Assembly (NCBI GenBank): GCA_030141605.1
Contig: JAQGDQ010001772.1
Span: forward strand, 1-26,041
Source of the DNA: Tubiluchus corallicola
Taxonomy: Eukaryota > Animalia > Priapulida
Direction: 5' to 3'
DNA length: 26,041 bases
A program made the position numbers and the translations under genes. The stretch's first letter is position 1; each line of letters begins with the position of its first letter. The notes under the pieces were generated by a model, which searched no databases, was not told the DNA's origin, and saw only the letters and a program-made list of their open reading frames with translations. Positions 966 through 22,730 of this stretch are shown one piece after another.

Positions 966-1266
966 ATTACGCTTCGTGGTTCAAAATTTAGAAAGCATAA
1001 GCTAATATGCTTTGTCACGTTTGCACAACGTGTGCTTCTGTAAAGGTAGAGCGAAGGCATAGAAAAAATGTTGCGTGTTAAAAATGGTTGCAACGAAGAA
1101 ACACAAAAGGAAGCTATTACCAAATATTTCAAGAATTAAGAGCAGACACGACCAAATGATTTTTTTAAATTACAAGCAAATGACACCAACAATGTTTAGC
1201 GACCTGCTAGATAAAAGGAAAATTTCACCTGTCATACAAAAGAGTAATACCAACGTCAGTGCTAGA
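966..1266 (+). pseudogene. N-terminal fragment of a PIF/Harbinger DDE transposase, repeat copy 1
   Basis: Translation across frameshifts gives KWLQRRNTKGSYYQIFQELRAD..PNDF.NYKQMTPTMFSDLLDKRKISPVIQKSNTNVSA. This fits the recalled Harbinger N-terminal pattern W..RR...G.Y..L..ELR..DP..F.NY.RM....F..LL..I.P.I.K..T..R. It ends before the helix-turn-helix and DDE core. Confidence 0.8.
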
Positions 1267-1465
1267 GGGTAAATTTCGTGCATATAATATAATAATTTTT
1301 GATATCCCACCTCTTTGGTTTGTCAATTATTATAAGGACCAGCAGAAACTTTCGATCAGATTTTTTTGAATTTCTACCTTCTGGTACCTGTGTATCTATA
1401 AATCTTATTATGAATTCCCTATTCCTTTCTAGGCGCTCTGTCTTCATTTCACCACGCAGCCACAA
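1262..1465 (-). pseudogene. Probable N-terminal fragment of the Harbinger Myb/SANT-like (MADF) partner ORF; equivalents at 1-~180 and ~2550-2753
   Basis: The ORF-track peptide ..KKSDRKFLLVLIIIDKPKRWDIKNYY resembles the MADF start motif (LI......P.LWD.K...Y). It lies in the same unit as the transposase fragment, as expected for a two-ORF Harbinger element. Confidence 0.5.
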
Positions 1466-2253
1466 ACATCAGTTTCTGCACCAATGTTAATTAGTTGTTA
1501 TTAGATGTTGTAAACATGGTGTCTTTTTAATTGTGTCATTGCATAGGTACCACCTTTGTCATTTTAAAGCAAATATAGAAAAGCTGTTACTACATGTATC
1601 TACAAATGAAATAGACAGTAAGTCCATACTTTTGTAGAGAATGAGCACAAGATACGTACAGAATGAGTTATTACATGTAATGAACTGTTATACATGTTTT
1701 TATGAGTTGTTGTTAATTTTGCTAAACAATTGTTAAGTTAATTTTTAATAAAATATTTTGCACTTCACTTACAACTTAATATGAATCAGGCATATCAAAC
1801 TAAATTAAAATATAGTAGTAGTTGTTTGTCCCAATATTTTATTGTTAAGATGTTTGAGTTGCCATTTTTCTGTTTCAGATTATAGAAGTTGCTGGTGAGG
1901 GAAAAAAACTTGCTGTTTTCTAGTGTCAAGTCAGTTGCCTATTTCTTCTGTTTCGTCAATGGCAGTTGTTAGCAGGTGCTACATGCAAAAAAGCTCACAT
2001 AGGCTTACTATTACTTGAGAAGAACAGTATTTGTTCGAAAGACTTACGTAAAGATCACAAGTTGTTTCCTAGTCTAAAATGAAGTAAAGTACAATGTTAA
2101 TAATAATGTTTCCTGTATGTCAAGTCACAGAGGCAGCGCAAACGTCTTTTTCTTTACTTATCACTTCTTTGAGTGAATGTGTTCTGCCCTGTGCCTCACC
2201 TCTTTCTCTACCAAATTAAGTATTTAAAAATTAGGTAAATGATTTCTCTAGTT

Positions 2254-2554
2254 ATGGCGCCTCGTGATTCAAAATTTAGAAAGCATAAGCTAATATGCTT
2301 TGTCACGTTCGCACAACATGTGCTTCTGTAAAGGTAGAGCGAAGGCATAGAAAAAAATGTTGCGTGTTAAAAATGGTTCAAACGAAGAAACACATAAGGA
2401 AACTATTACCAAATATTTCAAGAATTAAGAGCAGACACAACCAAATGATTTTTTAAATTACAAGCAAATGACACCAACAATGTTTAGCGACCTGCTAGAA
2501 ATAATGAAAATTTCACCTGTCATACAAAAGAGTAATACCAACGTCAGAGCTTGA
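2254..2554 (+). pseudogene. N-terminal fragment of a PIF/Harbinger DDE transposase, repeat copy 2 (ATG retained)
   Basis: ATG at 2254 (MAPRDSKFRKHKLICFV..), then KWFKRRNT*GNYYQIFQELRAD / PNDFLNYKQMTPTMFSDLLE...ISPVIQKSNTNVRA*. Internal stops and frameshifts are present. Confidence 0.8.
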
Positions 2555-3553
2555 GGGTAAATTTCGTGCATATAATATAATAATTTTTGATATCCCACCT
2601 CTTTGGTTTGCCAATTATTATAAGGACCAGAAGAAACTTTCGATAAGCTTTCTATGAATTTCTACCTTCTGGTACCTGTGTATCTATTAATCTTATTATG
2701 AATTCCCTATTTCTTTCTTCGCACTCCGTCTTCATTTCACCATGCAGCCACAAACAACAGTTTCAGCACCAATGTTAATTAGTTGTTATTAGATGTTGTA
2801 AACATGGTGTCTTTCTAAATTGTGCCATTGCATAGGTACCACCTTTGTCATTTTGAAGCAAATATAAAAAAGCTGTTACTACATGTATATACAAATGAAA
2901 TAGACAGTAAGTCCATACTTTTGTAGAGAATGAGCACAGAACACGTACAGAATGAGTAATTACATGTAATGAACTGTTATACGTGTATTTATGAGTTGTT
3001 GTTAATTTTGTTAAACAATTGTTAAGTTAATTTTTAATAAAATATTTTGCAATCCACTTACAACTTAATATGAATCAGTCATATCAAACTAAATTAAAAT
3101 ATAGTAGTAGTTGTTTGTCCAAATATTTTATTGTTAAGATGTTTGAGTTGCCGTTTTTTTGTTTCAGATTATAGAAGTTGGTGATGAGGGAAATAACATG
3201 CTGTTTTCTAGTTTCAAGTCAGTTGCCTATTTCTTCTGTTTCGTCAATGGCAGTTGTTAGCAGGTGCTACATGCAAAAAACCTCACATAGGCTTACTATT
3301 ACTTGAGAAGAACAGTATTTGTTCCAAACATTTAAGTAGAAATCACAACTTGTTTCCTAGTCTAAAATGAAGTACATTACGATGTTAATAATAATGTTTC
3401 CTGTGTGTCAAATCACAGAGGCAGCACAAACACCTTTTTTTTACTTATCACCTATTTGAGTGAATGTGTTCTGCCCTGTGCTTCACCTCTTTCTTTACCA
3501 AGGGAAGTTTTCAAAAATTAGGTAAATGATTTTTCTATTGTTGGAAAAAGTGA

Positions 3554-4696
3554 GGTTATCATTCACCAAATATGCTTCCTTGGTTGCTGTCTATCAGGAA
3601 GAGGATAGAAGATTCAATTGACGTAGAGACAATTGTTAAAGAGATAAATGGCAAAGCAATGAACTATATTGGTTCTCAATCATTGCAAAACAATCATGCA
3701 TCTGGCATGACAAACAACACTGGAAATGAGCAAGCATCTGGTAGAGCAAAATTGGAAGCAATTCCCATTCCTGGTTTTCGTGGTGGCTACAGTGAATAGC
3801 CGACGTTCATCACAAATTGGAGGAGGTTTGTCGAAAAACATTATTCCAGTGAATTTTGGGCTGCCATCTTGAATGAGAAACTAAGTGGAGAGGCGGCGGA
3901 TCTAGTAGCTGCCTGTAATGACAACTACGCTAAAATGATTAAACGCCTTGAAAGAAAATATGGAGATAGAAAGAAAGTCACTGAAAGCATCATGGCAGAA
4001 ATCAGAGATGTTAAGCCTTTATCTTCTGGCAACCATGTTGGTTACATAAAGTTTGTCGACAGGATAGAAAAAGCCAGTACAAAACTAAAGTCACTAGGTA
4101 TGTAGCAGGAAATTAGCAATGCGGGGGCACTAGCTGAAATTGAACACAGATTACCGGAAGATATTCGTAATGAATGGGCAAGGCACATCATCAGCAAGAG
4201 TGATGAGGAGAGACTGGAACCTTTCAAGCATCTTTTACCATTTTTGTTAATGGAAAAGGAGCGCGTAGAGTATTTAACTGCAGGTGTACGAAAGCAATTT
4301 GGCAGTGTCAGTAGCCATTATCAGGACATTCAACCTGAAGCCTTTGGGACTGGTGGCAGTGCTAAGTTAAAAGGCTGTTTCAAATGTGGCAAACAAGGAC
4401 ATTTTGCTCGTAAATGTAAAGCAAACGGGAGGATGGGTGACAAAGGACCTTACTTCAAGTGCAGCACATGCGAAGTAAATGACCATTTAAACAGGGATTG
4501 TGAAAAGTTCAAAAACATGACTGTTAATCAAAGACGAGATGTAATAAAGAGGCATGGTGCTTGTTATATCTGTGGAAATCATGTGGCAGTAGTATGCAAG
4601 GGCACAGTAAGGTGCAAGAAGTGTCAGAATGGAGGTCTCCATACAATGCTCTGCTCCAAAGAGATGCAATCTGGGCCTAGTAGTGTTTCAAAATAA
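3554..4696 (+). pseudogene. BEL/Pao gag region
   Basis: KLEAIPIPGFRGGYSE*PTF motif typical of BEL gag. Cys/His knuckles CFKCGKQGHFARKC, CSTCEVNDHLNRDC, CYICGNHVAVVC and CKKCQNGGLHTMLC. In-frame stops at 3797, 4103 and 4694. Confidence 0.9.
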
Positions 4697-4809
4697 AATG
4701 TTGAAGTGGTTGATTCAACAACTATTTCAAATTGTTTGGATGCTAAGAAGGTTACATCAGCTACAGTGACGGATAGTGCGGTACTGATTCAACAACATTA
4801 CGTCATATA

Positions 4810-7800
4810 ATGGAGATTCAAGGACCAAGGCGGGGCAGTAAAATCAATGCTTTCTTTGATTCAGGAAGTTCTGGAATGTTTATAACACATGACTGTGCAA
4901 AGCAGAATAAGTTCCCTGGAAAAAGTGAGATAATTGATGTTAAAACTTTGCAGGGACACGTGGAAACTTTGGAAACTCAGGTGTATAACGTCACGATAAT
5001 GGATAAAGATAATCAACGTCATACCTTTTTGGCATATGGCTTGGATTCAATAACTGGAAGCATTTCTCCAGTTGACATGACAGTGGTGAAGGGTATTTTT
5101 CTAGGGATTTCAGTTGGGGATCTTAAGCGTCCAAGTGGCACAGTGGAGCTTTTACTTGGCAATTTTAAAGCTGGATGGCAACCTCAACCAATCAGATCAG
5201 ATGGTGCTCATCTTTTCATTATGGAAAATATGTTTGGTAGGTGTTTGGGTGGATCTCATCCAGAGCTATTTGACACCACCAGAAAGGCAAATGGATGCTG
5301 GAAAGAAGCTATTTTTCATGCAAAGGTCTCTAATTTCAGTACTGAAGTTTTAAGTCATCCACAGCTCAATCCACAGGAGTGTCTAGTGATAAAGCAGCCG
5401 GGTGATTCTATGTCATCATTTTCAATTGGTACAGAAGCTAACTGTGACACCTTCTTTGCAGCTGAAGCACTCGGAACTCAGATTGTGCAGAAATGTGGGG
5501 CATGTCGGTGTGGTAAGTGCCCTATACCCGGGCATACCTACAGTTTCCGGGAAGAAAGTGAGCTACGCTTGATCCGTGAAGGACTCAGCTACAATCTAGA
5601 TTGCCAAGTCTGGATTTCGAAGTATCCTTGGATAGTGGACAGATCGCAGTTGCCTGATAACTATCAACAAGCTCTGTCAGCTTTACAGTCGTGTGAGACA
5701 AGTTTGGCAGAAAATACAGAATGGGGTGCTGTGTATTCAGGTCAGATACAAGACATGGTCAATCGAGCTGCTGCACGCAAACTTAGTCAAGCCGAGATTG
5801 ATAACTGGAAAGGGCCAGTTTTCTATTTATGCCACTTAGCTGCGCTTAACCCTAAGTGCCAGTCAACACCCGTGCGAATTGTTTTCAACACAACAATAGA
5901 AAAGCCAAGCTTAACATTTCACTTAATTCATGTTTGGCTAATGGACCAGACAATTACCTTAATAATTTGCTTGGCGTGTTTTGCGGGTTTTGAGAGCACT
6001 CTTTTGCTATTCAAGGGGACATTAGGAAGATGTACAACTCAGTTGAAATGGATGTCAATGATCAGCACTGCCACAGATTTCTTTGGCGGGATTGTGATGA
6101 AAATAGGGCGCCAGATGTATACATCATTACTGTTGTAAATATTGGCGACCGTCGGCGGGAGCGATTGCCACTGAAGCGTTGTATATGACTGCTGAAATGT
6201 TCCAAAACTCACATCCTCAGGCAGCAAAGGTCATAAAAGAGTCAACATATGTTGATGATATTCTAGAGTCTTGTGAAGGAAGAGAAAGGGGCCTCGGACT
6301 AACAAAGGAGGTGGAAGATATTTTGAATAGAGGGAATTTTAAAGTGAAGTGTTGGCGTTTTTCTAGTGAAGCAACTACAGAAGAAAACTCTTCGGTTAAA
6401 GTGATTGCAAATTCAGAAGAGGAAGGTCGAGTGTTGGGAGTTGTGTGGGACTCAGTGGTGGACAAATTCAAATTTCTTGCAAAGATCAATTTCTTAAAAA
6501 GGAGGAGGAAAGTACGAACAGGTACAGACATATGTCGCGAGGAGTTAGCCAGAGAAATGGCACCAATTTTGACAAGACGGATGGTCATGAGCCAAGTCAT
6601 GTCACTGTTTGACCCATGTGGCTTTCTTACTCCAGTCACCATGAAGAGTAAGATACTGCTAAGGGAAACTTGGGTTAAGAAACTTGGCTGGGATGATGCA
6701 TTGCCATTGGATCTGCGGGAGGAGTTTTTTGAATTTTTTCAAGAACTCTATGATGTTCAGAGTTTATCATTCCCAAGATGCTTGCAGCCAAGAGAAACTG
6801 TTTGTGATCCGATGCTGATCATACTTTCAGATGCTAGTGAGACAGGATTTGGTGCTGTCGCCTATGCTCATTGGGAATTAACTGATGGAGGTAGTAAGAG
6901 TCAGCTTATAATGGCAAATGGTAAAATTGCTCCGCTGAAGCACATCACGATCCCAAGACTTGAACTAAATGGTGCTCTAGTGGGCAAACGAATAAGGAAA
7001 TTCATTGAAAGTGAAATGCGGTACAATTTCACAGAGGTTTTGCATCTCATTGACTCTAAAACAGTTTTGGGGATGCTACAAAAAACAAGCAGTAGATTCG
7101 ATCGCTATGTGGGAGTGCGTGTTGGAGAAATACAATCTGCATCTAAACTTTCAGAAGACGGGAAACTTGATGAGTGGATGTGGATCGATGGATCTCATAA
7201 TATTGCAGACTGGGTGACACGTGGAAAGAAGCCATCAGATTTAGCAAGTGATGAATGGGTAAACGGACCACATTTTCTGAGTTTACCAAGGAGTGAATGG
7301 CCTGTATCACCTGCTTCAGTCAGTGAGGATGAACTTTCAGATATCACAGCAGTTGGAGTAGTTTCTGTCAAGGAGAATGAGTCAGTATTTGATGTATCCC
7401 GGTTTAGCAAAGTTAATAGGCTACTTCGTTCAGTCGCAAGAGTGTTGCAAATAGTGAAACCATGTGGTGATGGGAAACCCCATTTTTCCAGTGGTTCAGT
7501 AATGGTAACAGCTGAGATGCTGGAGGCAGCCAGAAGACGTGTCATCAAAGAAGCTCAGGACACAGTAGAGGAAGAGTTAGAGAAATCGACACCAGATAAA
7601 GATGGTAAACCCACTGGTAGATTTATGAGGTTAGCACCTACGAAGAACAGTGACGGATTTTGGGTGGTTGGCAGTAGAATGCAGTGTTATGTCATTTTTA
7701 CGTGGGACAACCAGCTACCTATTATTTTGACATATGGACATCCATTGACACGACTTTTCATGGACGAAGCTCATGCTCAAGGGCATCTTGGGGTGGCTGC

Positions 7801-8907
7801 AACTCTGGAAAAGTTTCGCAGGTAGTACTGGGTTCCTCGTGGAATGCAATTGGCCAAAAGTGTCAAGCACAGATGTACTACTTGTAGACGTGTTGATGTC
7901 AGAGCAGCTAATGGGCCCTCTTCCAGAAGAAAAGCTTAAGCCAGCTCCACCTTGGAAAAATACAGGATTGATTTGTTTGGTCCATTTAGGGTAAGAGGAG
8001 AAGTCAATAAAAGATGATCTGGGAAATCATATGGGGTTCTGTTTGTGTGTTTAATAACAAAGGCTGTCCACATAGAACTTGCGAACAGTTACTCCACTTG
8101 CAGCTTTCTTTCATGTCTCCGTCGGTTTGGTGCAATCAGAGGCTGGCCAACAAAGATGTTCAGTGATGGTGGGTCGCAGCTGAGAGCAGCAGGCAAAGAA
8201 TTGTTGGAAATGCATCTTCAGCTAGCAGGAAAAGATGAGTCCACATTCAGTGCTTCAAATGGATTTGCTTGGTAGTTTAGCCCTGCACATGCTCCATGGT
8301 GGCAGGGGACAACAGAGAAGTTGATTCATACGGCAAAAGGGCAATTTCACTGGCAGTAGGATGTGCACTCAAGAGCTATTCCGAGTTACAAACTGTTCTT
8401 TACGAGGTGATGCAGCTAATAAACCAGCGACCTCTGCATGTACATATTTCAGAGGAGAAACATTTCAATGCTTTGACACCGAATGATATGTTGCTTGGTC
8501 GCAGCTCTGTGAACATACCTCTAGGTCCGTGGAACTACAAGGCATCGTACAGAGATCGCTTTAGAGTAATTCAGACAATTGTCGACACGTTTTGGCGCAG
8601 GTGGAGCAGAGACTGTGCACCAGCCTTGGTAGTTCGTCAGAAGTGGCATCATAGAGAGCGGAACATTTAAGTAGGAGATGTTGTGTTTGTTGCTGACACC
8701 AATACTCTGCGAGGAGAGTATCGCTTGGCAATGGTGGATGAGGTGTTTCCTGGATCAGATGGAAATGTTCGCCATTGCATCGTCAAATACAAAAACATCA
8801 AACCGGATGAGTATGCTAGGAACCATGGTGGGGCGACATATACATGGGTAAGACGGCCAGTTCAGTGGTTGGTTGTTCTTGTTCCTGCAGATGGTTGGGA
8901 GATTTAA
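4810..8907 (+). pseudogene. BEL/Pao pol region (aspartic protease, RT, RNase H, integrase), broken by stops and frameshifts
   Basis: Protease AFFDSGS; STPVRIVF; RT YVDD; RVLGVVWD; FDPCGFLTP; RNase H SDAS and TIPRLEL; NIADWVTRG; integrase HAQGHLG..C..C, AVHIE, FSDGGS, APWWQG; LTPNDMLLGR; FWRRWS; VRRPVQWLVVL*. Confidence 0.95.
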
Positions 8908-8938
8908 AGGAGCACCGCATTTTTTTTCATCTCGGGGG

Positions 8939-9544
8939 TGTTTAGGAAACAATTTGATGATATATTTTTTGTTATGCAGTTGTGTCATAATGAATGTTTT
9001 TTAAGACTAAGATTTAACACTTAGATTTTAAGACTTAGATTTAACAGAAACTTGTAGTATCTTGGGGAGGTGCTGCCATCTTTTGGCTGTAAAATTAATT
9101 TACCTATTTCTGAAACTGTTTACTGTACAATCTATTTACATACCATTTACTGGGTTTCAACTGAAGTTAAAGAGCTGTAACAGGAGTCCTGGCTAATGTA
9201 TGTTGGTCAGTTGTAGTTCAGGTCTCATAGTCTGCTGGTCAATAATGTAATTGGTGACTTTCATAATGTAGTTTGTCAAGGTATGTTGCTTTAAATTATA
9301 TTTTTGTGTTTTTTTCTGATTTGCTAAACTGAGAGGTTAGTGCTTTAATTTTTGTTATAAGAGTGTTAAACTTAGGTGAATTATTAAGTTAAACTTCCCT
9401 AAATGTTGCTTTTACTTTTATTTCAGACTGCAATTTATGTTGAAACCTACCCCCCCTCTGCACCGGCTTCACTTCTTCATCTTTTTTGACAATAAAGGAA
9501 TCAACCTGTATCAAAGTGTTCATCATTTTTATTTGGTTACAACA
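8939..9544 (+). repeat. 3' LTR of the BEL/Pao element (~606 bp)
   Basis: Starts TGTT immediately after the GGGGG PPT (8934-8938) and ends AACA (9541-9544), a 4-bp terminal inverted repeat. AATAAA at 9491. LINE coding sequence begins directly after the end. Confidence 0.85.
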
Positions 9545-10660
9545 TGCAGGCAGACAAACTGGACAAAACAGTAGGGATATTTTGTGACCTCTCTAAAGCC
9601 TTTGACACAGTTAATCATAAAATACTTCTTGCAAAACTACATCATTACAGTCTTAGAGGGGTAGCAAACGCATGGATATCTAGCTATCTTCATGGGAGAA
9701 CACAATAATGGTTCGACATAATAATGTAATTTCAAACGAAGCTTCTATAACCCATTTGGTACCGCAAGGCTCAATCTTAAGTCCATTGCTATTTTTAATA
9801 TATATAAATGACATAAAATATGCTTTAGATAGTCCAAATCTGTTCCAGTTTGCAGATGATACGAGCATATTCTTTGAATTAAACAAGGCTGATAATTTAA
9901 TGTATATCAACCGTGAGTTACAAAATATTGCTATTTGGTTCAAAACGAATAAGTTGTCATTAAAATCTACAAAAACTAAATCTATCATTTTTAGAGCAAG
10001 ACACAAGTAAATTCCAATTGATAATGGTGATATTAAAATCAATAATTCCCCAAATGAAATCATACAGGAAATGAAATTTTTAGGAATCATTCTAAATGAG
10101 CACATGGATTGGAAGCCGCACATAGACATGATCAAAAGTAAGATTTCAAAAAGTATAGGCGTCATATGTAGGACTAAAAATTGCTTTACTAATTTACACA
10201 TAATAACCTTATACAATTGTTTAATATTTCCATACCTCACATACTGTTGTCTCCTTTGGGACACTAATATAAATAAATTACGGGTTATCCAAAGAAAATT
10301 TCTTAGAATCACCTGTAATCTTAGAAAAAGAGAACATCTTAGTTTAACATGTTTTAAAACTAACAAAATTTTAACTGTTGACGATTTAATACACATGAAT
10401 ACAGCTACATACATGTATAAAACTAAATATAATCTCTTTCCAACGTTCTTTAATAATCCATTCCAACCAAATAATCAGCGTTACGCAACCAGAATGAATG
10501 AGTTTGTCGTAAATTTCTGTAGAACAGACGTGGCACGGCAATTCATTGCAAATATTGGTCCAAGTTTTGGAATGACATAAATGATGAATTAAAAACTGTT
10601 CAGCCAATTCCAAAATTTAAAAAGAAATACAGAGCAATGATTCTCAACAAGTACAACAAC
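9545..10660 (+). mobile_element. 3' half of non-LTR retrotransposon ORF2 (CR1/L2/Crack-like RT), degenerate
   Basis: [35 protein letters not shown]; VPQGSILSPLLFLIYIND; FADDT; WFKTNKLSL; KFLG; C-terminal FKKKY...LNKY. Several stops and frameshifts. Confidence 0.93.
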
Positions 10661-11715
10661 TTCCGAATTTCCCACACCTTAATGAGCTCTAACTCTGCAT
10701 GTATCCCTTTGAGACAATAGTGGCTTTCTTAAACAAGACACCTGCATTTCTATAACACGTGTGACGATTCTGACACATTAAATTCGGTCCACCAGCTGGG
10801 TGAGTTTCTTTTTTCATGAATTTACTTCATGAAATCAGGGAGGCGTGTGTGTATCAACTGAATCTAATTCAGCTGATAACTCCATTAATTATCATCCAAA
10901 ATACATATTCATAAATTTATTCACAACAACTTCTTTATCTCTTGTTGTGTAAAAACTGAATGTGTGACGTGAATAAATTATTTCTAAAGGTCGCTGCTCT
11001 GTAACATGCCAAGGACACTGGTCATTCATAACAACAGGTCGTATAAGAGAAGGAAACATAAAGAGGCACAATCAAGTATCATCATTATCATCGTCTTTAC
11101 TATCATACTTTTGGACTAAAAATGTTTTGACCTATTCAAATTTTTTGCAGCAGCCAGCCTCATCATAGCCATTGTCATTGACACTGTTGATAGATTTGGT
11201 TGTTGTTGTTGTTTCTGCCCCAGGACCACTTTCATTTTTTTAATTGCTAAGATTTAGTAGCGGGATTAGTGGCACGAAGTATATACTATAGTACAACTTG
11301 TAATGTAGGTAAATTTTACATTTTATTCTACAACTTTCTGCCACTCTAGACATCGTTTGTATCTATGTAATTTCCTGTTCCAGCTTTTTTATTTAGATCT
11401 TCAGACTCTCGCATATTTTGCAGCAAACTAGTTCAGAATGCGAAGCATTGTATTACTTGCTTTTTGAACTTTTTATACCCACGTGTCTGTTATGTCATTT
11501 AGAATGCCTTTCACTACTGATGATAAATATGAATTTTTCAATTAGACTTTGTTACTAACCAAGACGTTGAGATTGACAATTGGTGTAAACATATTTCAAG
11601 CTGAAAATGTGCTGCATATCGTAATCATATTAATAAAAAGCAATATAGTTTTTTATTGTCAACTAAAAGTGTTCAACACTCACCTCAGTAATACTTACTA
11701 ATAAAATTGAAAAGA

Positions 11716-12804: not shown

Positions 12805-14116
12805 CGAAAGAATCTGACAACACTTGGTATATACATAAGAAATAGAAATCCGTTCATTTTTACACATCCGTTCATTTTTTATACTTTTTATATGAATAAG
12901 CTTCATGGCTATACATGGAAGATTATGAATATCAGTACAAAAATGAAAAACTACAAAAGTCCAAAATACAGTTCCTATTGTAGCAGCATAATCCTATCAC
13001 TCAGGAGTAGTACAAGTAATCAAAACCATAATATCTAAACAATAGAGAAATAATTATCGATGCAGGTAGATTATCACTAGAAGATAGATACAGAAATATA
13101 GACCAATATATCATGGGGAAAGTGATAAAGTGAAAATCTTACAGCTAACCATGAGACAATATAAGCGTATTAGCTCAGAAAATTTTTCTTTGCCCAAAAG
13201 TTATTTGTGGCACAAAATCGATACTTCTGACAAAAATATTAATAGTGTGATTGAATGATTGGGCCAATGGCGCAAAAATTTTCGATGTTTTACAGTCAAA
13301 AATCATCGGACAAATGATATTTTGGGGGAAGTCTGTCCCATATTTTTTTGGGCATTCGATCAGATTTAGGACAATTTTCTTTGTGTCCTGGCTTGTACCC
13401 TATGTAAGACAATGAGTAATAACTAGGTAATAACCTGTACATAACATTTGCAAAGCATAGAAAATAAACAGTACATGAAACATTTGCCAGTCCTTGCAAG
13501 AAGCAATTTCCATTCCGTAGATATTTCATTTTTTAAGATTGGAAGCGCTCTAAATGCCGTCCAGTGTCTTTAGTACAGGCTAATAGATTCACAATATTCG
13601 TTTCGTGCGGATAACTAGTCAGAATACCGCATTTAACGCAGGTAAATAGCCCAGAAAACAAACATTTTAGTTCAGCAGTGGCCGCCATCTTGAACGATGG
13701 AGTCCAATCCTGTCGGTAGTTTAACCAATGTGCTGGCCAGGCCCCTAGTTGCCAAATATGAAATTTTATGATGTTTTGAAGTATTTTGACAAGATTTGAC
13801 AACTCATGTTTACCTACACGAAGCTTTTTGCTGAACGTTGTTACCTATATTTTCACCCAGTCACAATGAATTGTAGTTTAATCAAAACACACATATCAAG
13901 CAATAAATTTTAGACAAAAGCGTCAAGATAAGAAAAATAATAAAATGGTTTTCTTGAATCATTCAAAATTGATAAAACAAATTATTTGCCACCCAAAGAG
14001 TTGAGTTTATAGATGACAGGAGGAGACAAGAGACAGAAAAAAGTGGGAACAAAATTTCAGGGAACTCATAGTAATAAACCAGAGTAGTAAATGTTTCATT
14101 TCTATTTTACTTCATA

Positions 14117-14240
14117 TTTTTACTTCAAGGCATTTTGCAATATATTGGTGCAATCTCGTTAAGCAGAAACGTCATATAATGGATGATACACGTGCTCGGG
14201 ATCATAAATTAAATCTACGAGGTTCTTGAACAAACCAACA
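14117..14240 (+). repeat. Diverged duplicated non-coding block D1 (paralog at 15864-16002)
   Basis: Shares TTTTACTTCAAGGC, GCAATCT, AAGCAGAAAC, TATAATGGATGAT, ATCATAA and GAGGTTCTTGA, in the same order, with D2. Confidence 0.85.
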
Positions 14241-14270
14241 GCTCAAGGCGACTCAACATAGTTGCTCACT

Positions 14271-14325
14271 TACTGACTAACTAACTGACTGGCTGACTGA
14301 CTGACAGGCAAGTGACTGACCGCCT
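14271..14325. repeat. Degenerate (ACTG/ACTA)n microsatellite
   Basis: actgactaactaactgactggctgactgactgac... Confidence 0.8.
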
Positions 14326-14619
14326 AACAGTCTGCTTGAGTGGCTAATTGATTAACTCGGTATGCAGGAAGCAGACTCATTGAGTGACTTTCTGGTTGAC
14401 TAATTATTTTGAGGCAGCAGTTAGGTAAATAGAAACGGAGATAATGGAGTTTGTACCACCATCAAACATTGTCATAAAAAATTAATATGTTTAGAAATGT
14501 TAAACATGTCCCGTGGGACCACATTTTTTTAGAATTCGAATAAAAAGGATTAAAATATTTTAAAATCAATAAAAAATAAATTCCACTGGCATTAATTTTA
14601 AATCTGGAATAATTTATAA

Positions 14620-14665
14620 CATCATCACTGTCACCATCATCATCATCGTCGTCGTCGTCATCGCC
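14620..14665. repeat. (CAT/CGT)n microsatellite
   Basis: atcatcactgtcaccatcatcatcatcgtcgtcgtcgtcatcg. Confidence 0.85.
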
Positions 14666-14692
14666 GTTTCGGTTTTTCAAATAATAACAATA

Positions 14693-14892
14693 ATAAATCA
14701 ACACGAGCAGTATCAGAAGGATATTTACCTTGAGATGCCAATTTGGCCAGTAACCTTTTTTACTATTTCACATTACAACGCTCAATACCTACGAGACGCA
14801 TCATAAATAACACAGAACCCGCCTTTCCCTGATTTCAGTTGACAAGATTTATGATGTTGGTGCCGACAAAGGCAAGGCAATGAACGACCTTC
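14693..14892 (+). promoter_or_regulatory. Conserved non-coding module, copy A (putative enhancer/promoter)
   Basis: Motifs ATTTACCTTGA, TTGGCCAGTAACCTT, CGAGACGCATCATAAAT, TGATTTCAGTTGAC and AAGGCAATGAACGACCTTC are shared with copies B and C. The frames I translated contain stops. The repeat is certain; the regulatory function is inferred. Confidence 0.55.
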
Positions 14893-15863
14893 GCATAAAA
14901 CTAGTAGCTATTAAAATGATAAAATCTTGAAAACGCTCGGGGCTTTTTATACTTTCCAGAAACAGGTAAGAATTTTTTTATTCCAGCTAAAACACTGGTT
15001 TTTGTTTCTTTCTTTATTCATTTTTCTCTTTCATCTCTTTTCATTTCTTTTTCCTTTCGTTTCCTTCACTTTTTGTTACATAAATTTTTATTGTCATTGA
15101 CTCAAAATATAAATCATGAGTGCCTTCAGCAATGTGCTTTAGTAATAGTTGCCAGTTTAAGTGGAAAGATTAAAAACTGTCCAAGTGATGAATCGTGACT
15201 GGATTTCAAAATGTTTTAATGGATTTTTTTCACACACTAAACACTTATTGAGAGCTAAAGTTTGTGACATTTACCTGGAGGACATGTCTGAGATTTCTGA
15301 AAGTTTTGTAGACTAATGTTACATGACAGTAGCAAGAGATAAAATTCAAATAAATTCCAAAGTCTGTTCCCACGGCTATAGAAATGAAATAACAGCGTTT
15401 ACTGGCGGCTAATATATAAATTTGCTGGAGGCTGATGTCTTATCCTACATGACAGTGTCTAGAGTGAAGATTAATACCTGTGTGTCAGTACTCAGTATTC
15501 AATGTCAGTACCTATTACATTTTATGCCGACAGCTAGTAAAATTGATTAATAAAGCAGAGAAAAACTTGCTATATTTTGAGTGCAATAAACTCAGCACCG
15601 TCCAAGGACATTTCAAAGCGTTGCATTAGGAGACATCAATGACTGAAGATAGATGGTTGACTTTTGAGACAAACAAACATTTGTTCATTTTTCTTTTTAT
15701 TGCTGTTGCTGTTACTTCTAAAATTGCACAAACGATTACAAGTTTCTTAAAAAATAATTTATTCTGAGATTTTTTTCAGAATGAATTTTGAGGTGCATTT
15801 AAATTTTTACACTACGGACTTTAGAAAGCTTTAATTCTTTTACTTTTCAAATTTGCATTATAG

Positions 15864-16002
15864 TTTTACTTCAAGGCTATTCGTTGGCTTTTCTCTGTTG
15901 AAAAAGGTCATAAATATTTTGTCGCAATCTGTTCAAGCAGAAACATCTTATAATGGATGATGCAGAATCATAATTTAAGTCTGAGGTTCTTGACCAAAAC
16001 AA
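15864..16002 (+). repeat. Diverged duplicated non-coding block D2
   Basis: Collinear with 14117-14240. Confidence 0.85.
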
Positions 16003-16027
16003 TATATACTGCAAAATCTTCTCAACA

Positions 16028-16028
<1 letters not shown>

Positions 16029-16075
<47 letters not shown>

Positions 16076-16151
16076 CATCATCATCATCAACATTATTATT
16101 ATTATTATTATTGTCGTCGTCATCATCATCATCATCATCATTATTATTATT
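16029..16151. repeat. Compound (ATT)n/(ATC)n/(GTC)n microsatellite
   Basis: Read directly from the sequence. Confidence 0.97.
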
Positions 16152-16697
16152 AAGATTTTGCAGTTATTATTAAAATATTGCAATACTTGCAAAATCTTAG
16201 TTTCTAACTGTTGAGGAAGCAAGAAATCAAGAATTCATGAGAATGGACATGTTAGCGGGCCTTAACATGCGTTCCCAATTTGTGCATTGTGAAGACAATT
16301 GGGATTATCATAAATAATAAAAAAAACCATAATTTAACTTTATGATCATCAGTTTATTGGAAATTACATTCTTGCATTTACTACCGGAAAATTACATTTG
16401 CATACAATAATTGGAAACATTTTAATATTCAAATGTTTAATCATACAACTTCCCTAACTTAGTATGAAAAATGATGTTATTTGGCGTTCAAATAAGGCAA
16501 GATCATTCAGCTGTCTTAACTTGGAATAAATGTCTTCAGTGTGAAGATTTTTTAACTCTAAATGAGCATTATACTTTCAGAACATGTACAAAGTTGCTTA
16601 TTGTTTCACATGTAAAACTTTCTTATTTAAACTGACTCCACATTTATCACAGCGTTTATAACTATAATGCTGAAAGCATTCAATTTTTATCTTATGT

Positions 16698-16881
16698 GAA
16701 GGTCGTTCATTGCCTTTATTCTAAATGTAATTGTGAATTGTTACATCACGTCAAATGAAATCATATAAAATTCACATTCCAAGTTTTTGATGGTGCGCCT
16801 CGTACGTGTGAGGAATTCCAATTCAAAACGCTGGAAAGTTTACTGGCCAATAAAACAGCTCAAAGTAGATCTATATTTCTG
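16698..16881 (-). promoter_or_regulatory. Conserved non-coding module, copy B (inverted, most diverged)
   Basis: GAAGGTCGTTCATTGCCTT (16698), GTCAAATGAAATCA (16750), TGCGCCTCGTACGTGT (16794), TTACTGGCCAA (16840) and TCAAAGTAGAT are the reverse complements of the A/C motifs. Confidence 0.55.
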
Positions 16882-17377
16882 GAAGCGTTTTTGTAAAGTG
16901 GCATTTGCTTTTTTTTATTTTGCTGCTGGAGTATTACGTTAGCTTAGTTAATCTTATCTTAGTTTACTTTGCATAATAGTTTAGCATGTATCGCATTTTC
17001 ATAGTAATTAAATTGCAGAATTTGCTTTTCAGTTTAATTTCTTTTATCTGCTGCTTTTAAATTGCCATGTAAACTTATGATTATCAATTGAAACTCGTTG
17101 TATATATGATTGTATTTCAAGTAATTATGCATTTAAATGATTATAAAGTATTTTTTTATTTTGTCTAACATTTAAGTTGTATCTTAGTGAACAATTTTGT
17201 CTACGGATTTTAGTGGTCACAGAGTGGCGAAACTTTTAAATTTACAAATAAGTTTTTTCATTGGTTTTGCGCGTAGCATAAATATTTTTAACTTATTGCT
17301 TATAAAGCAAAGTGTGAGGTGGGAAATTGCTCAAATACTGTAACCAAAAGTAGAATCGTTGTACGCTGACTATTTCA

Positions 17378-17602
17378 TACACATGCACATACACCCGCAT
17401 GTAAATTGCACACACCACACACGCATTCATGCACACATCATCTTACATAAACACACACTCAAATCACACATGCACATTATGTAGCACATACGCCCGCACG
17501 TAATGCGCACACACCACACATGTATTCATGCACACATTATCTCGCGCACACACACACATACACACACTCAAACTACGCATCCATTCACGCATACCCGCAC
17601 AT
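17378..17602. repeat. CA-rich low-complexity tract with ~99-bp internal duplication
   Basis: GCACATACACCCGCA at ~17385 and GCACATACGCCCGCA at ~17484, with collinear downstream sequence. Confidence 0.85.
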
Positions 17603-18102
17603 TATATAGGTTTGCACGTAAAGACATTATTTGAGACGTTTATACGAATAGTTGTAGTAAACCCAGATAAGGGAATTCGATCTCATCATTAATCTTCCGT
17701 CTAGACTTCCATCTCTCTTGTGCATTATAGGCGTTACCAGCATCACAGAAATGTCCTCGGGGGAAGCTTTAGCTCACAATGTAATAAACTTTAATTCAGC
17801 ATAGGTGTTCGCACTTGTCAAAGAGTAAAACCGCTAAAAGATTTTAAACTCCAGCCCTGCATTTTCATGAACGTGAAGTTATTGGAAACTTGTGAAACAC
17901 GGCATGCAGAATGAAGGTCACTTGTAAAATATGCATGGAACAGCACCTGGTATACTACATCCTAGTAAAAAATAATGAATTGAAGAGAGAAAACAAATGA
18001 CGGATGAACACGTTATTTAGTAAACAAAAATACTTGCTATGTTTCAGTTTTTTCAGAAGAATTCTACTGTATAATACTGCTGGTTTATCATAACTCTGTA
18101 AC

Positions 18103-18303
18103 ATAAACAACACAGAAACATCAGAAAAACATTTACCTTGAAATGTTACTTTGGCCAGTAACCTTTTCTACTATTTTAGATTAGAACACTGAACACGTGC
18201 GAGGCGCATCATAAATAATAAAGAATCAACTTTCCCCTGATTTCAGTTGACAAGATTTATGATTTTATTGTTGCCGACAAAGGCAAGGCAATGAACGACC
18301 TTC
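18103..18303 (+). promoter_or_regulatory. Conserved non-coding module, copy C
   Basis: Closely similar to copy A, including identical runs CCCTGATTTCAGTTGACAAGATTTATGAT and TGCCGACAAAGGCAAGGCAATGAACGACCTTC. Confidence 0.55.
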
Positions 18304-18354
18304 AAAACTGGTACGTACTTAAACTCGGGAACCTAAAAACTACTTTTTAACGTT

Positions 18355-18410
18355 TTTGTTGTTTGTGTTGCTGTTGCGGTTGCTGTTGTTGTTGTTGCTG
18401 TTGTTGTAGT
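18355..18410. repeat. Degenerate (GTT/GCT)n microsatellite
   Basis: Read directly from the sequence. Confidence 0.8.
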
Positions 18411-19175
18411 TAATTTATCGCTTACTTTAGGGTTATTTCGCTGTTTAAGCTTTGGTAACCAATATGCAAATTTGAGTTTGTTAAAAGAAATGTGTAAACG
18501 AAGAGAGGTTATCTTAAATACAGTTTTGTAAGTTTTTTTTGTTTGTTTTTCACAATATTCTGAATGCCGCAGTTGATTTACTGTAGCCACTTTTTGAGGT
18601 TTTTGTAAAACAAAAAATAAGACCCCGTGGCTCAGCAAGCAAGATATTTATACCCAGTGCTTCAAAAAATTAATTAATCTATTTAATTATGTATTTTTAT
18701 ATAAAATATTCACTGAAATTTTAAATTGATTTGAACTTTGGATAGCGGCCATTTTAGTTTCTATTTTTATTAATCCAAAGTAACATGGCTCAGCAAGAAA
18801 AATATCTAAATCCATCTTCTCAAAATCTACTTTTAGTTTATACAAATATCTCAATACAATTTCGAAATTATTTAGCAACATAATTCATGCAAAATAAAAA
18901 TTATTTCCATTTATTCATGCAAAGACAATAAAACAAATTAATATAAACTAACATGACAAAATGTCATTATATTTTTATAAATCATTACCATCATCGCAAT
19001 TATTGCAAAAAAATAAATTCATTTTGATTGTAAAGATCACAGGGCCTCTAGCTAAGAAGACACTGTGCTGCCATCTCTTCGCAAAAACCAAAATTACATT
19101 TTTGTCTGATTTTCTAGTAAACTTTTCTATGTTTACAGTCATATAATCTGTTGTTAAGTTAAGGTAAAATTAACT

Positions 19176-19335
19176 GAACCAATAAGCTTACGTTACGCCA
19201 AGATACGACCAATCAACTGCTGGTGTTGATGCACCAATGAACACATGTGGGCGTGAGTATTCAGAGGCAGTAACTTATGGGCGTGGTTTCTTTAACATAT
19301 TTAACCGCAAAAGGAGCGCTGCTTACTTCTCAACA
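19176..19335 (+). promoter_or_regulatory. RNA polymerase II promoter (3x CCAAT, 2x GC box, TATA-like)
   Basis: CCAAT at 19179, 19209 and 19234, all preceded by A; GGGCGTG at 19249 and 19279; TATTTAA at 19298; pyrimidine-rich Inr-like sequence ~25-30 nt downstream; splice donors CAG|GTAATA (19411) and GTGAGT (19452). Confidence 0.65.
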
Positions 19336-20837
19336 CTGTAAACTCAACACTGCGCAAAAATTGCTGTGAATAAAACACTGTCTTGATCTTTTCATTTTTA
19401 ATCTGCACAGGTAATACAGAAGTCAGGTTTTGCAAAATTATTTTTGTAAATGTGAGTTTCTCACCTTATTTGGTGCAAATATCTCGTGAGTTGATTTTAA
19501 TGGCATTTCACTATACTTTTGTTGTGTTAATATTTTCTGAATTTCATCTAATTTCTTATGTGCAATATGTGAATTTTTGTGGGTAACAGAGCATTCAACG
19601 TTTTTGTGAAATATTTATGAACCAAGTGAATTGGATATTAACTGAGCGCCGATGTGAATAAAATGTCGATGCAGCATTCTTTTGCTTTTTCTAACGGTAA
19701 GGTCAACTTGCTGAATTACCCCTAAAAAATGCAAGAAAACGTTTTTTGGTGTTAGACCAAATTAGACCAAAATTTTATGCACTGTAAAGGGATTAATTGT
19801 GACGTTAAAAATATGCCACCATTTTTTCCAAAATTAATAGGTAGGATTTAGTCCAGGATGATGAAAAAATGCTCACATTGATTCAAAAGCATGAAATTTT
19901 TGCACAGTGCCAGAGCTCATTAAGTTAATTAATTTTCATTATTGAGTCAATTGATTTTTTTCAATGGCTGCAAGTTTCGAGATGGCTGGCAATATGTCTG
20001 CTGCTAGCTTATAAGGGTAATATCTTGACTGTCAGAACATACATGATAATGTTTTGGTGTCATAAGTTATAAGTTTATTTATTTCCACTCTGCATTTAAC
20101 AGTTATAATAAAAGTACAGATAATTTCACTGAAGTAAATATAAATATAAATACAATATTCTCCAGAAATTACAAAAGATGTTCTTATGCAGCATATACAT
20201 GTGCAAATTACATTACAGAATAATTTTGATGCATACAGTTTGAGCCTAAAAGCATAGCTTGACAGGCCAAACTGTACGTGGAAATCTTAAAGAAGTGATT
20301 AATAATTGAAATAATGATAATATATACATAAAGGTGTCGGGGAGTAGTGAATGAGAGATGAAATGGAGTGAGAAAGATGAAATGGAGCGATAACTAGTCC
20401 ATATATAGGTTCTCAAGAAATCCACATCTGATGCTTGAATGCCCCTATAATACCACTCCAAGATGGCGGCTAAGATGGCGGCAAACTTTGCACAAAATAA
20501 CGGAATTGGTCATTATAGTCAAATAGCAGCCATCTTTTTTGACGTCATAATGGACCCTTCGCAGTGATCAAATTTCGGCCTAATTTGGTATGATATTCTC
20601 TGTACAAATATTACCAGAATTTACCAAATATTAACACAAAAGCGTTTTCTTGTAATCTTTGAGAATTAAGGCTATTTTTTCCATTATATTGACACTACTA
20701 TAAAGTGATTGAATTTCTTATTTCACTTCAATTCGAGCTGTTATCAAAAGCAAATGCCTAATGTTTCAAAGCCTGATATTCCATGCTTGCAATGTGATTC
20801 TTTATTTTTATACAATTTTGATATATGTATAAACGTC

Positions 20838-20920: not shown

Positions 20921-20965
20921 CGTAAATATTACACCTCGCCAGAGGACTTATTTTGCTTGTTAATT

Positions 20966-21130
20966 ATTTCGCCAGTCACTCTGTCGTTATACATATAAGA
21001 AATAGTCCTAAATACAGGCAGTACACATATATACAGTGTACACTTTGCCATGGCATCGTTCTGCCAGATATCATTTCTGTAGTGTACCATTTCGTCAGAT
21101 AACTGTTTTGCCAGTCTATTCCTTCGCTAT
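20966..21130 (-). repeat. Degenerate 16-bp minisatellite (TTTYGCCAG core), inverted relative to 22443-22730
   Basis: CCA/TCA cores at 21048, 21064, 21095 and 21111; ATTTCGCCAGT at ~20966. Confidence 0.6.
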
Positions 21131-21489
21131 TGCTTAAGTAGAGATGGTGTTTCAAAGTTTCCAATGAATATAACTACGTTTAGCCTCGTTTCATTGGCTG
21201 AAAATAATGGAATATTAAATAGCTTATGACTTATTGTTTTGTTTTAACAGTTTAGAAATCTTTAGCATTTGCGTTAATATTGTTTCAAAAAATGCCATTT
21301 ATTAAAATTTTCTCAGGAAAACAACAAAAACCAAAAACAGGATAAAGAAAATGTCTACTGTTTATAATGTTTGTAGCTGCTGTTTGTTGTTGTTTTGTTA
21401 TGACAGCGACTGTGTGGCTCGTGATTGGCATAGCAACCTACCAAAGCTTTTTAAATAAAACTGCATATTTATTAAACATAGACGCAGTA

Positions 21490-21780
21490 TAAATAGTGAG
21501 AAAAACATGCTAACTCTCAGGCTCCCAAGTCAGATTAGCTAGAGGTGCTGGCTACAATTCCTTTTGTTTAATTACCTAGCGCACTGGGCTTCTGCGCATA
21601 GCAGTTACATTATCTATCTACAGTCGTGAAGAATCCTTCTAAATGGGTCAAGCATCACGTGGTACGCCACACCGAGGTTCTGGCTTGAATCTTTAATTTA
21701 ATATTTAACCTTGAATCATCAAATTGATATTTTAATCTTTAATCATCAATTTGATATTTTAATCTTGAATCATCAATTTA
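21490..21780 (+). mobile_element. Old SINE-like element with a tandem-repeat tail
   Basis: Degenerate tRNA-like head (GAGGTGCTGGCTACAATTCC resembles a T-arm/B box), a GC-richer body, and a tail of ~27-bp units CTTGAATCATCAAWTTGATATTTTAAT at 21684, 21710, 21737 and 21764. Confidence 0.4.
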
Positions 21781-22442
21781 AAACACGCACTCTTTAAACT
21801 CTGCCTTTCTCGACGTTCTCAGCAAATACTCTGTCTTTATAGAAGACAAAAAAGACGTCATATAGAGGGCACCAATGAAGTGCATAAAATTGAGATTAAT
21901 ATCCCAGACCCCTTGATCATAGTCACATGGGTCACAGGCACTTGAGGTCTACTATAAATGTCCCATATTTGATCAAAGTACCAAGCCTTCGTTTTGAGTT
22001 ATCAATTAAAATATGTGTCATTGTGATGTAAACAATAACTCTTTAAACATGAAATTTTCTAAATGCGTTTGTATTTCCGGTGTGTAAAATATTTATCACA
22101 AATTTCTAGCTGAACAAAAACCGTCTTGCCATTTTAGCGTCATACTTCAAATTCTGTGTTTGTAAAGGAGATCAAATGGTGCGAACTTGTCACTCTCTTA
22201 TGAATTCTTCTTTGCACAATCATTTTAAATCAGTCACATTTGAAGATTTACGTGTCAAATAATACGGTAGGCAAAAGAGCACTTCATAAATTGTATTTGT
22301 CCTATTTCTAATATTCTCTGTTGAAATAAGACTAATGAAGTTATATGCTGGCAAAATATACCACTGTTTCTATGTATGTTGTAGTATTTCCAACATGAAT
22401 TATCAAAGTGGACTGTCGTCAGAGTCAAAGTCAAAGTAAAAT

Positions 22443-22730
22443 TTGGCAGTTCTAACAGATTGGCATACCGATAATCTGGTGAAATGATACTTTGGCAGTA
22501 CGCCGCACTGGCGAAATGTGCAACTGTCTATATGTGTGATGCACAATTTCTAATATACAGTACTGAAATCAGAGTGACAAAACGATAGATTAGAAAACGA
22601 CACACTGTCCAATTGATATACAGGTAATATGGTAGACTGGCGAAACACTACACTGGAGAAGTTACAGTAAAATAACAAAAAAAGTTGGCAAAATGACAGA
22701 CTGGCTAGCATTGGCAGAGCGATATACAAC
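22443..22730 (+). repeat. Degenerate 16-bp minisatellite (YTGGCRAAAT core), ~17 units
   Basis: TGG cores at 22461, 22477, 22493, 22509 and at 22638, 22654, 22686, 22702, each series in 16-bp phase. Confidence 0.75.

What the first reader, a model, noticed from the sequence alone, without database searches (positions are those of the whole stretch)
14693..18303. Triplicated ~180-bp non-coding module with rigid motif spacing, middle copy inverted
Copies A (14693-14892, +), B (16698-16881, -) and C (18103-18303, +) share five motif islands. Between B and C the spacers have diverged but the offsets have not. Measured from the GTCG of GAAGGTCGTTCATTGCCTT, GTCAAMTGAAATCA is at +48/+48, TGCGCCTCGYACGTGT at +92/+91 and TTACTGGCCAA at +138/+138. 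The span to the final GT is 163/163 nt (160 in A), so the islands recur every ~46 bp. The frames I translated have stops. Islands contain nuclear-receptor half-site-like words (AAGGTCG, AAGGTTA, TCAAGGTA), an ACGTG bHLH/PAS core (B, C) and TGGCCAA. Inference: an enhanceosome-like element multiplied upstream of the 19.2-kb promoter. Alternatives: a non-coding exon bounded by AG|..|GT, a structured RNA (A has a CATCATAAAT/ATTTATGATG stem that B lacks), or a protein-bound recombination/inversion site.
Basis: partly seen in the sequence, partly recalled or inferred. Interest (0 to 1): 0.78.

Follow-up and report, generated by a model that had tools for sequence, protein, structure and literature searches.

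The report
Fixed-spacing motif module in low-copy repeat
Three copies of a 175-base non-coding stretch in an animal genome keep five short sequence words at nearly the same distances while the DNA between them has drifted, and further copies exist elsewhere in the genome, so it is likely a docking platform for several DNA-binding proteins carried by a small repeat family, with no activity shown yet.

Summary
Copies B and C match at 67 of 71 island positions but only 50 of 101 spacer positions. Their offsets are 48/48, 92/91, 138/138 and 158/158; A is 3 nt shorter. Changes made after A and C split avoid the islands (4 of 132 sites against 13 of 89, p=0.002), so selection acted on them.

Three corrections. 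(1) The period is loose: steps are 48, 43-44, 46-47 and 20. (2) This is not a local triplication. Public contigs show an A/C-like family at about 5-15 times the depth of B, with boundaries near the module, and the module lies in a larger four-block unit. (3) Rigidity is incomplete. Some family contigs carry 7- and 13-nt gaps, and two contig variants each delete about half of B.

There is no coding signal, Rfam match, folding excess or transposon end. Best reading (0.42): a spacing-constrained protein-binding DNA module that is duplicated and lost in a low-copy family. Rivals are a control region of an old transposon (0.28) and a non-coding exon or RNA (0.2). A link to the 19.2-kb promoter is untested.

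The parts
14693..14915 (-). Module copy A. Islands 14874-14892, 14830-14843, 14785-14800, 14743-14753, 14723-14733; 3-nt gap in spacer 1; island 3 has three changes of its own
16698..16881 (+). Module copy B, inverted and divergent, at flank-level depth. Islands 16698-16716, 16750-16763, 16794-16809, 16840-16850, 16860-16870
18103..18323 (-). Module copy C. Islands 18285-18303, 18238-18251, 18193-18208, 18151-18161, 18131-18141; island 5 holds a splice-donor-like word
14094..14270 (.). Block D1, partner of D2 in the same orientation (76% over 100 columns), followed by an ACTG-type microsatellite
15840..16030 (.). Block D2; also multi-copy in public contigs (up to 9 contigs per run at 15922-15931), followed by an ATT/ATC microsatellite
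15197..15480 (.). Block E1; islands shared in inverted orientation with E2 (local score 46, best of 200 shuffles 27)
17686..17856 (.). Block E2, inverted like B; E2 and B would form one inverted unit inside the C unit (inferred)
15100..15170 (.). Block IIa, weak partner of the flank of B (score 26, best shuffle 27.5: not significant alone; a loose end in X4 at 15107 matches B's flank over 15 letters)
16600..16690 (.). Block IIb, directly beside island 1 of B
19179..19285 (+). Promoter-like cluster about 0.9 kb from C: CCAAT at 19179, 19209, 19234 and the window's only two GGGCGTG words at 19249 and 19279. A link to the modules is untested
   Evidence: reading as NF-Y and Sp/KLF sites is recalled

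Best explanation
The module is a non-coding block of about 175 bp whose five islands and spacer lengths have been kept while the spacer letters drifted, and it likely works at the DNA level as a platform on which several different proteins would bind at set distances, most likely as a cis-regulatory module. Shown: the island pattern, the kept offsets, the avoidance of islands by later changes, further copies in public contigs, and embedding in a larger unit of blocks E, D, module and II. Inferred: the unit was duplicated locally more than once, with one copy placed inverted inside another; copies are gained and lost (birth and death), so that some keep function and others decay. Three islands contain palindromic words (TGA-N2-TCA, TGGCCA, and CACGTG in C), as dimeric factors would read. 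Which factors bind, and which gene is served, is not known.
For: B-C islands 67/71 against spacers 50/101. Clustering p about 0.01. At sites shared with B, changes on the A and C branches hit 4 of 132 island sites and 13 of 89 spacer sites (p 0.002); the A branch alone gives 3/67 against 10/48 (p 0.008, and 0.011 with islands defined by a fixed rule from B and C only). Chance of keeping the four spacer lengths is 0.023 at 0.07 indels per substitution and 0.00015 at 0.25; the laid contigs list 98 indel rows to 394 substitution rows over 14400-18600 (rows are not events). No codon bias (mismatches 17/54, 21/54, 15/54), no folding excess (z -0.10, -0.71, -0.11), no Rfam match on the module. The island-2 palindrome is kept through a change on both sides in B. 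A diverged sample, X5, with next to none of the region's words, holds one contig that matches C over 85 letters with 8 differences. Flanks of A and C do not align beyond the blocks.
Against: No binding, accessibility or reporter data. The C branch alone is not significant (1/65 against 3/41, p 0.16). At 0.03-0.05 indels per substitution the kept lengths are unremarkable (p 0.18-0.06; the size distribution was assumed). A has lost 3 nt and the ACGTG word. Of 12 common family variants in the core, 3 lie in island 3. Three of the 17 pieces shown have gaps in the core (2, 7 and 13 letters; 121 pieces not shown), and one X4 contig replaces 63 letters around island 2 by 20. Two contig variants of sample S1 skip 16523-16810 and 16815-17113, each removing about half of B; large deletions hit modules at the chance rate (2 of 6, expected 1.6). 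X5's 90% match may be no better than neutral divergence, as its coverage is thin. Offsets are not whole helical turns.
Confidence: 0.42

Rival explanations
1. The blocks are internal parts of an old non-autonomous transposable element. B and A/C come from subfamilies whose master copies kept protein-binding or promoter words needed by the element itself; inserted copies decay neutrally. The inverted unit is a nested insertion.
For: Multi-copy A/C and D families, with depth about 15x (X4) and 5x (X1) that of B (depth is not a copy number). The 14400-15245 stretch is raised in X4 but not clearly in X1, which suggests copy-number change. One unit lies inverted inside another, microsatellites adjoin the blocks, and the window is rich in element debris. 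Decayed and deleted copies occur.
Against: No terminal inverted repeats or subterminal repeat pair bound the module or the unit among the 25 longest inverted pairs listed per region. No coding remnant near the blocks. DNA between blocks does not align between the A and C units although the blocks are 76-85% alike, which uniform decay of one inserted element would not give. Copy number at 80% identity is low.
Confidence: 0.28
2. The module is a non-coding exon or a small RNA domain. It would be spliced at the donor-like word in island 5, and the islands would be read by RNA-binding proteins or partner RNAs.
For: Family likeness ends close to the donor-like word. GT follows the exon-side AAG or AAA in A, B, C, in family loose ends and in X5; one X4 variant has GC there. 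A and C can form a similar long stem around island 2. The length, 163 nt, is exon-like or snRNA-like.
Against: No folding excess; the consensus covariation term is 0.01 and 1.67 kcal/mol on the two strands, with only three sequences. The stem of B is in another register. No Rfam family or tRNA. The acceptor is a weak AAG, the donor of B is weak, and C/D or H/ACA box words are not shared by all copies (read by eye; box consensus recalled).
Confidence: 0.2
3. B pairs as antisense RNA with A or C inside one long transcript, as docking and selector sequences do, and this keeps the islands in register.
For: B is inverted and in register with both A and C. Unchecked earlier notes describe such pairings elsewhere in this genome.
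Against: No excess of G-U-compatible changes on either strand (16 against 12 for C-B and 20 against 13 for A-B, with 27-30 transversions). No coding exon is regulated here. The islands are shared with family copies elsewhere.
Confidence: 0.05
4. The copies are protein-bound recombination or inversion sites.
For: Inverted arrangement; the two deletion variants of B both break at 16810-16815, next to island 3. Conserved boxes at rearrangement junctions are reported for nematode satellites (PMC3694981, abstract).
Against: None of the 9 joints listed changes strand (contigs drop rare variants). No recombinase gene in the frames scanned. No core-plus-spacer palindrome typical of recombinase sites (recalled).
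Confidence: 0.04

Closest known systems
Enhanceosome-type enhancers (interferon-beta model; PMC10176946, passages read)
   Same: Different motifs in fixed order and near-fixed spacing within under 200 bp, with higher conservation of the motifs than of the surrounding DNA.
   Different: Here the spacer letters are free, the module is a multi-copy family with decayed members, and no factor, activity or target gene is known.
Meloidogyne satellite monomers with conserved boxes (PMC3694981 and PMC8097292, abstracts and section lists only)
   Same: Divergent repeat units (32-64% alike in PMC3694981) that share short conserved motifs, including a fully conserved 19-bp box; island 1 is also 19 of 19 identical.
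   Different: The module is not a head-to-tail array, has five different islands, and nothing links it to centromeres. I did not compare the box sequences.
HINE / DINE-1 non-autonomous Helentrons (PMC4067079, passages read)
   Same: Non-coding interspersed repeats with a conserved core and adjoining microsatellites.
   Different: No 12-15 bp subterminal inverted repeats or 3' stem-loop bound the module or unit, and copy number at 80% identity is low.

Membership tests
Enhanceosome-type enhancer | Fixed composition, order and spacing of motifs | tested here: inconclusive
   Met for B vs C; A lacks 3 nt and one word, and family pieces have 7- and 13-letter gaps
Enhanceosome-type enhancer | Purifying selection on the motifs | tested here: met
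   Post-split changes avoid islands, 4/132 against 13/89, p 0.002; the C branch alone is not significant
Enhanceosome-type enhancer | Direct cooperative binding of transcription factors | not testable with these tools
   No binding data; motif names are recalled
Enhanceosome-type enhancer | Spacing-dependent activation of a target promoter | not testable with these tools
   Needs reporter or chromatin data
HINE / DINE-1 (Helentron) | 12-15 bp subterminal inverted repeats and a 3' stem-loop at the ends | tested here: not met
   None bounding the module or unit among the 25 longest inverted pairs in each of three regions; unit ends are themselves uncertain
HINE / DINE-1 (Helentron) | Internal microsatellite or tandem repeat | tested here: met
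   ACTG, ATC/GTC and ATT runs lie between D and the module; weak evidence in this genome
HINE / DINE-1 (Helentron) | Insertion at TT and an autonomous Rep/helicase partner | not testable with these tools
   No whole genome is held
Satellite DNA with conserved boxes | Head-to-tail tandem monomers | tested here: not met
   No array over the copies; gaps between copies are 1.8 and 1.2 kb
Satellite DNA with conserved boxes | Divergent units sharing an invariant box | tested here: met
   Island 1 is 19/19 and island 4 is 11/11 in all three copies
Curated non-coding RNA families (Rfam 15, tRNA) | Match to a covariance model | tested here: not met
   0 matches at gathering score in the window; none of 5 weak matches (E up to 10) in 14000-19800 overlaps an island; 0 tRNAs
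Spliced non-coding exon | Conserved donor and acceptor | tested here: inconclusive
   Donor-like GT kept in A, B, C and most loose ends; acceptor is a weak AAG
Spliced non-coding exon | Junction reads in RNA | not testable with these tools
   No usable RNA run (see Tried and rejected)
Protein-coding exon | Shared open frame and third-position bias | tested here: not met
   Stops in all 18 frames; mismatches 17/21/15 by position; no credible protein relative

The most novel reading that the evidence does not exclude
A natural family of enhanceosome-like modules: one rigid five-site protein platform, copied to roughly 5-15 loci, in which evolution has already randomised the spacers and kept sites and distances. 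If island 1 is an ecdysone-receptor element (it fits a recalled consensus at 12 of 13 positions) and island 3 a bHLH-PAS site, the family would be a moult-timing switch spread by duplication in a non-arthropod ecdysozoan.
Probability: 0.12. Interest if true: 0.75.

Novelty: new member of a known kind. Interest (0 to 1): 0.4.

Why it matters
Rigid motif spacing is usually inferred from one enhancer at a time. A paralog family with scrambled spacers and fixed offsets is a ready-made mutagenesis series: it names the likely binding words and the distances that matter, and it can be tested directly with spacer-length reporters. If it is instead part of a transposon, it marks an unclassified non-autonomous element with an unusually constrained internal region. 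At present it is a well-supported constrained non-coding element with no demonstrated function, so interest is moderate.

Tried and rejected
No whole genome is held for this window, so copies could not be listed. The metagenome scan for island 1 gave 5 loci of 49-59% GC; none has any other island, so they are chance matches. A two-island pattern gave 0 viral loci. Sequencing-run search: no RNA holder listed. X6, guessed to be RNA, laid 0 contigs on C; neither blank is evidence for or against expression. Rfam, tRNA and folding were negative. Pfam on 40 chosen frames gave hits above threshold only for 4 retroelement frames at 4.2-10 kb plus a borderline protease match; 4 more frames near the blocks gave none. 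B has a 98-codon frame if TGA is read through; its only hit among 1.84 billion proteins is a tandem-repeat protein matching mostly upstream of the islands at 26.6 bits per stretch, rejected as spurious. Block D resembles a last coding exon in one frame, but the D1-D2 alignment has frame-breaking gaps. Spliced-leader RNA, hammerhead and HDV-like ribozyme, tRNA-type A/B boxes, initiator plus DPE, Helitron 3' end and microRNA readings were considered by eye from recalled consensus words and dropped, because the partner features are missing or not shared by B. The recalled ecdysone-element consensus has 9 hits at one mismatch in the window against 11.8 expected, so it is not enriched; two literature searches did not give me the consensus. 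Six 14-letter island words are in no paper of the library; searches found no paper on such a family, and searches listed nothing on this element (listings only). Look-ups of earlier findings by sequence or place found no look-alike. A tandem unit with alignable flanks was rejected: flanks score at shuffle level, apart from one weak A-C downstream score that did not hold.

Full report
Setting. The window is AT-rich animal-type DNA with a 1.29-kb threefold tandem repeat at 1-3537, a broken Pao-type retroelement at about 3.6-9.5 kb and a LINE fragment at about 9.5-10.7 kb. None of the frames scanned between 11 and 25 kb reaches a Pfam threshold. Unchecked earlier notes call this genome a probable priapulid; I did not test that. 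No whole genome is held.

The observation. The three copies exist as described. A and C are 81.5% alike over 227 columns. B is inverted and 67.4% alike to C over 175 columns. Offsets from the GTCG are 48/92/138/158 in B, 48/91/138/158 in C and 45/88/135/155 in A. The steps between islands are thus 48, 43-44, 46-47 and 20, so the 46-bp period is loose and is not a whole number of helical turns. B and C match at 67 of 71 island positions and 50 of 101 spacer positions, with 0.29 expected at random. The clustering of matches beats permutation nulls (p 0.013-0.017 for B-C) and a uniform-divergence simulation (p about 0.01, slightly lenient).

Is it selection? Islands were chosen after the fact, so I used a branch test. 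At sites where two copies agree, changes on the third branch (A or C) fall on 4 of 132 island sites and 13 of 89 spacer sites (p 0.002). The A branch carries the signal (3/67 against 10/48; p 0.011 when islands are defined by a fixed rule from B and C only). The C branch alone is not significant (1/65 against 3/41). The spacers are about 0.88 substitutions per site apart, yet their lengths differ by 0, 1, 1 and 0. Under an assumed indel model this has probability 0.18, 0.06, 0.023, 0.007, 0.0013 and 0.00015 at 0.03, 0.05, 0.07, 0.1, 0.15 and 0.25 indels per substitution. The region is rich in indels: 98 indel rows to 394 substitution rows in the laid contigs (rows overstate events). Constraint on words is therefore well supported, and constraint on spacing is moderately supported.

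It is a family, not a local triplet. Contigs of public runs were laid at 80% likeness. On C, 67 contigs of X4 and 70 of X1 were laid, and depth rises from 17-36 in the left flank to peaks of 470 and 391 in the core, dropping sharply after 18303. Relative to B the core is about 15x in X4 and 5x in X1. Depth is not a copy number and A and C both contribute, so I read this as very roughly 5-15 loci, not hundreds. Copies under 80% alike cannot be seen. B stays at flank depth. Loose ends resemble the flanks of A for some tens of letters on both sides. X1 and X2 are one sample and may be the source of the window; X4 is a second study. X5, a third study with next to none of the region's words, has one contig matching 18135-18219 with 8 differences and one matching 14873-14938 with 11.

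Results against strict rigidity. Of 12 common variants in the core, 9 lie in spacers and 3 in island 3; none lies in islands 1, 2, 4 or 5. With islands at 71 of 173 positions this split alone is weak. Three of 17 pieces shown have gaps in the core (121 pieces not shown), and one X4 contig replaces 63 letters around island 2 by 20. Two variants in sample S1 skip 16523-16810 and 16815-17113, removing islands 1-3 or 4-5 of B. Of the 9 joints listed I set aside the X4-only joint and two that switch between A and C. Two of the other 6 hit a module, against 1.6 expected by chance. Large deletions do not avoid B, so B may be dispensable now, or these contigs come from decayed paralogs.

A larger unit. 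Sensitive self-comparison shows more paired blocks: D1/D2 (76%, same orientation as A/C), E1/E2 (inverted like B; score 46 against a best shuffle of 27) and a weak block II (score 26 against 27.5, backed only by an X4 loose end that matches B's flank). Read in the A/C plus direction the order is E, D, module, II. The simplest reading is two units head to tail, with a third (E2, B, IIb) inverted inside the C unit. DNA between blocks does not align between units. D is also multi-copy, and one X2 contig joins E1 directly to D2. I found no terminal repeats for the unit.

What it is not. It is not coding: stops in all 18 frames, no position bias, and no credible protein relative for the one long read-through frame of B. 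It is not a curated RNA family. It shows no folding excess and no covariation, with low power at three sequences. An antisense duplex of B with A or C shows no G-U bias. No joint changes strand.

Mechanism. Sequence-specific islands, free spacer letters, kept lengths, palindromic words and no RNA structure fit best with proteins bound side by side on DNA. I put 0.42 on a host cis-regulatory module under birth and death, 0.28 on a control region of an old transposon, and 0.2 on a non-coding exon or RNA. The first two share the same physical mechanism and differ in whom it serves. The exon reading rests on a donor-like word in island 5 where family likeness ends. Factor names are leads only. Island 1 fits a recalled ecdysone-element consensus at 12 of 13 positions, but such matches are not enriched in the window (9 seen, 11.8 expected). 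Two half-site-like words lose their GG in B, and the bHLH-PAS-like word is lost in A. A promoter-like cluster of three CCAAT and two GC-box words lies 0.9 kb from C; nothing here ties the modules to it.

Comparison and novelty. It works like the enhanceosome model as described in PMC10176946 (passages), but membership cannot be tested without binding or activity data. It shares the invariant-box pattern of Meloidogyne satellites (PMC3694981, PMC8097292; abstracts) but is not tandem. It lacks the ends that define HINE/DINE-1 elements (PMC4067079; passages). The island words appear in no paper of the library, and searches found no description of such a family; most subscription papers are not searched and I read no supplements. 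I rate it an undescribed member of a known kind, interest 0.4.

Noticed in passing
window 1-3537: Three tandem copies of a 1.29-kb unit, 93-94% alike, each with splice-like words and a short frame at about 1130-1270 that resembles the start of a Harbinger-type transposase (resemblance recalled, not tested).
   Followed up: partly
window 3600-9540: Broken Pao/BEL-type LTR retroelement: zinc knuckle, protease-like, Peptidase_A17 and DUF5641 frames, with stops and frameshifts between them.
   Followed up: partly
window 9540-10700: LINE reverse-transcriptase fragment (RVT_1, E 2.8e-11).
   Followed up: partly
window 16001-16199: Small structure: a 12-letter word, an ATT/ATC microsatellite, the inverted word, then an 18-bp hairpin at 16151-16199. 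It resembles a tiny HINE-like insertion.
   Followed up: partly
loose ends at window 18152 (X4) and 18135 (X5): Two family copies from different samples carry the same stretch of about 22 letters next to island 5 in opposite orientations, a possible micro-inversion (compared by eye).
   Followed up: no
window 14400-18600: Sample S1 holds several variants of the whole region, many only 85-95% alike and with frequent indels: very high heterozygosity, pooled animals or segmental duplicates.
   Followed up: no
window 14400-15245: Depth is raised several-fold over the stretch to its right in X4 but not clearly in X1: possible copy-number change of the A unit between samples.
   Followed up: partly
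window 20930-22720 and 21684-21782: Clusters of GCCAG words at 20.9-21.1 kb and CTGGC/TGGCA words at 22.3-22.7 kb in facing orientation, probably the subterminal arrays of a DNA element, with a 27-bp palindromic tandem repeat between them.
   Followed up: no
window 19179-19430: Promoter-like cluster (three CCAAT, two GC boxes) followed by donor-like words near 19410-19427; none of the downstream frames scanned reached a Pfam threshold.
   Followed up: partly
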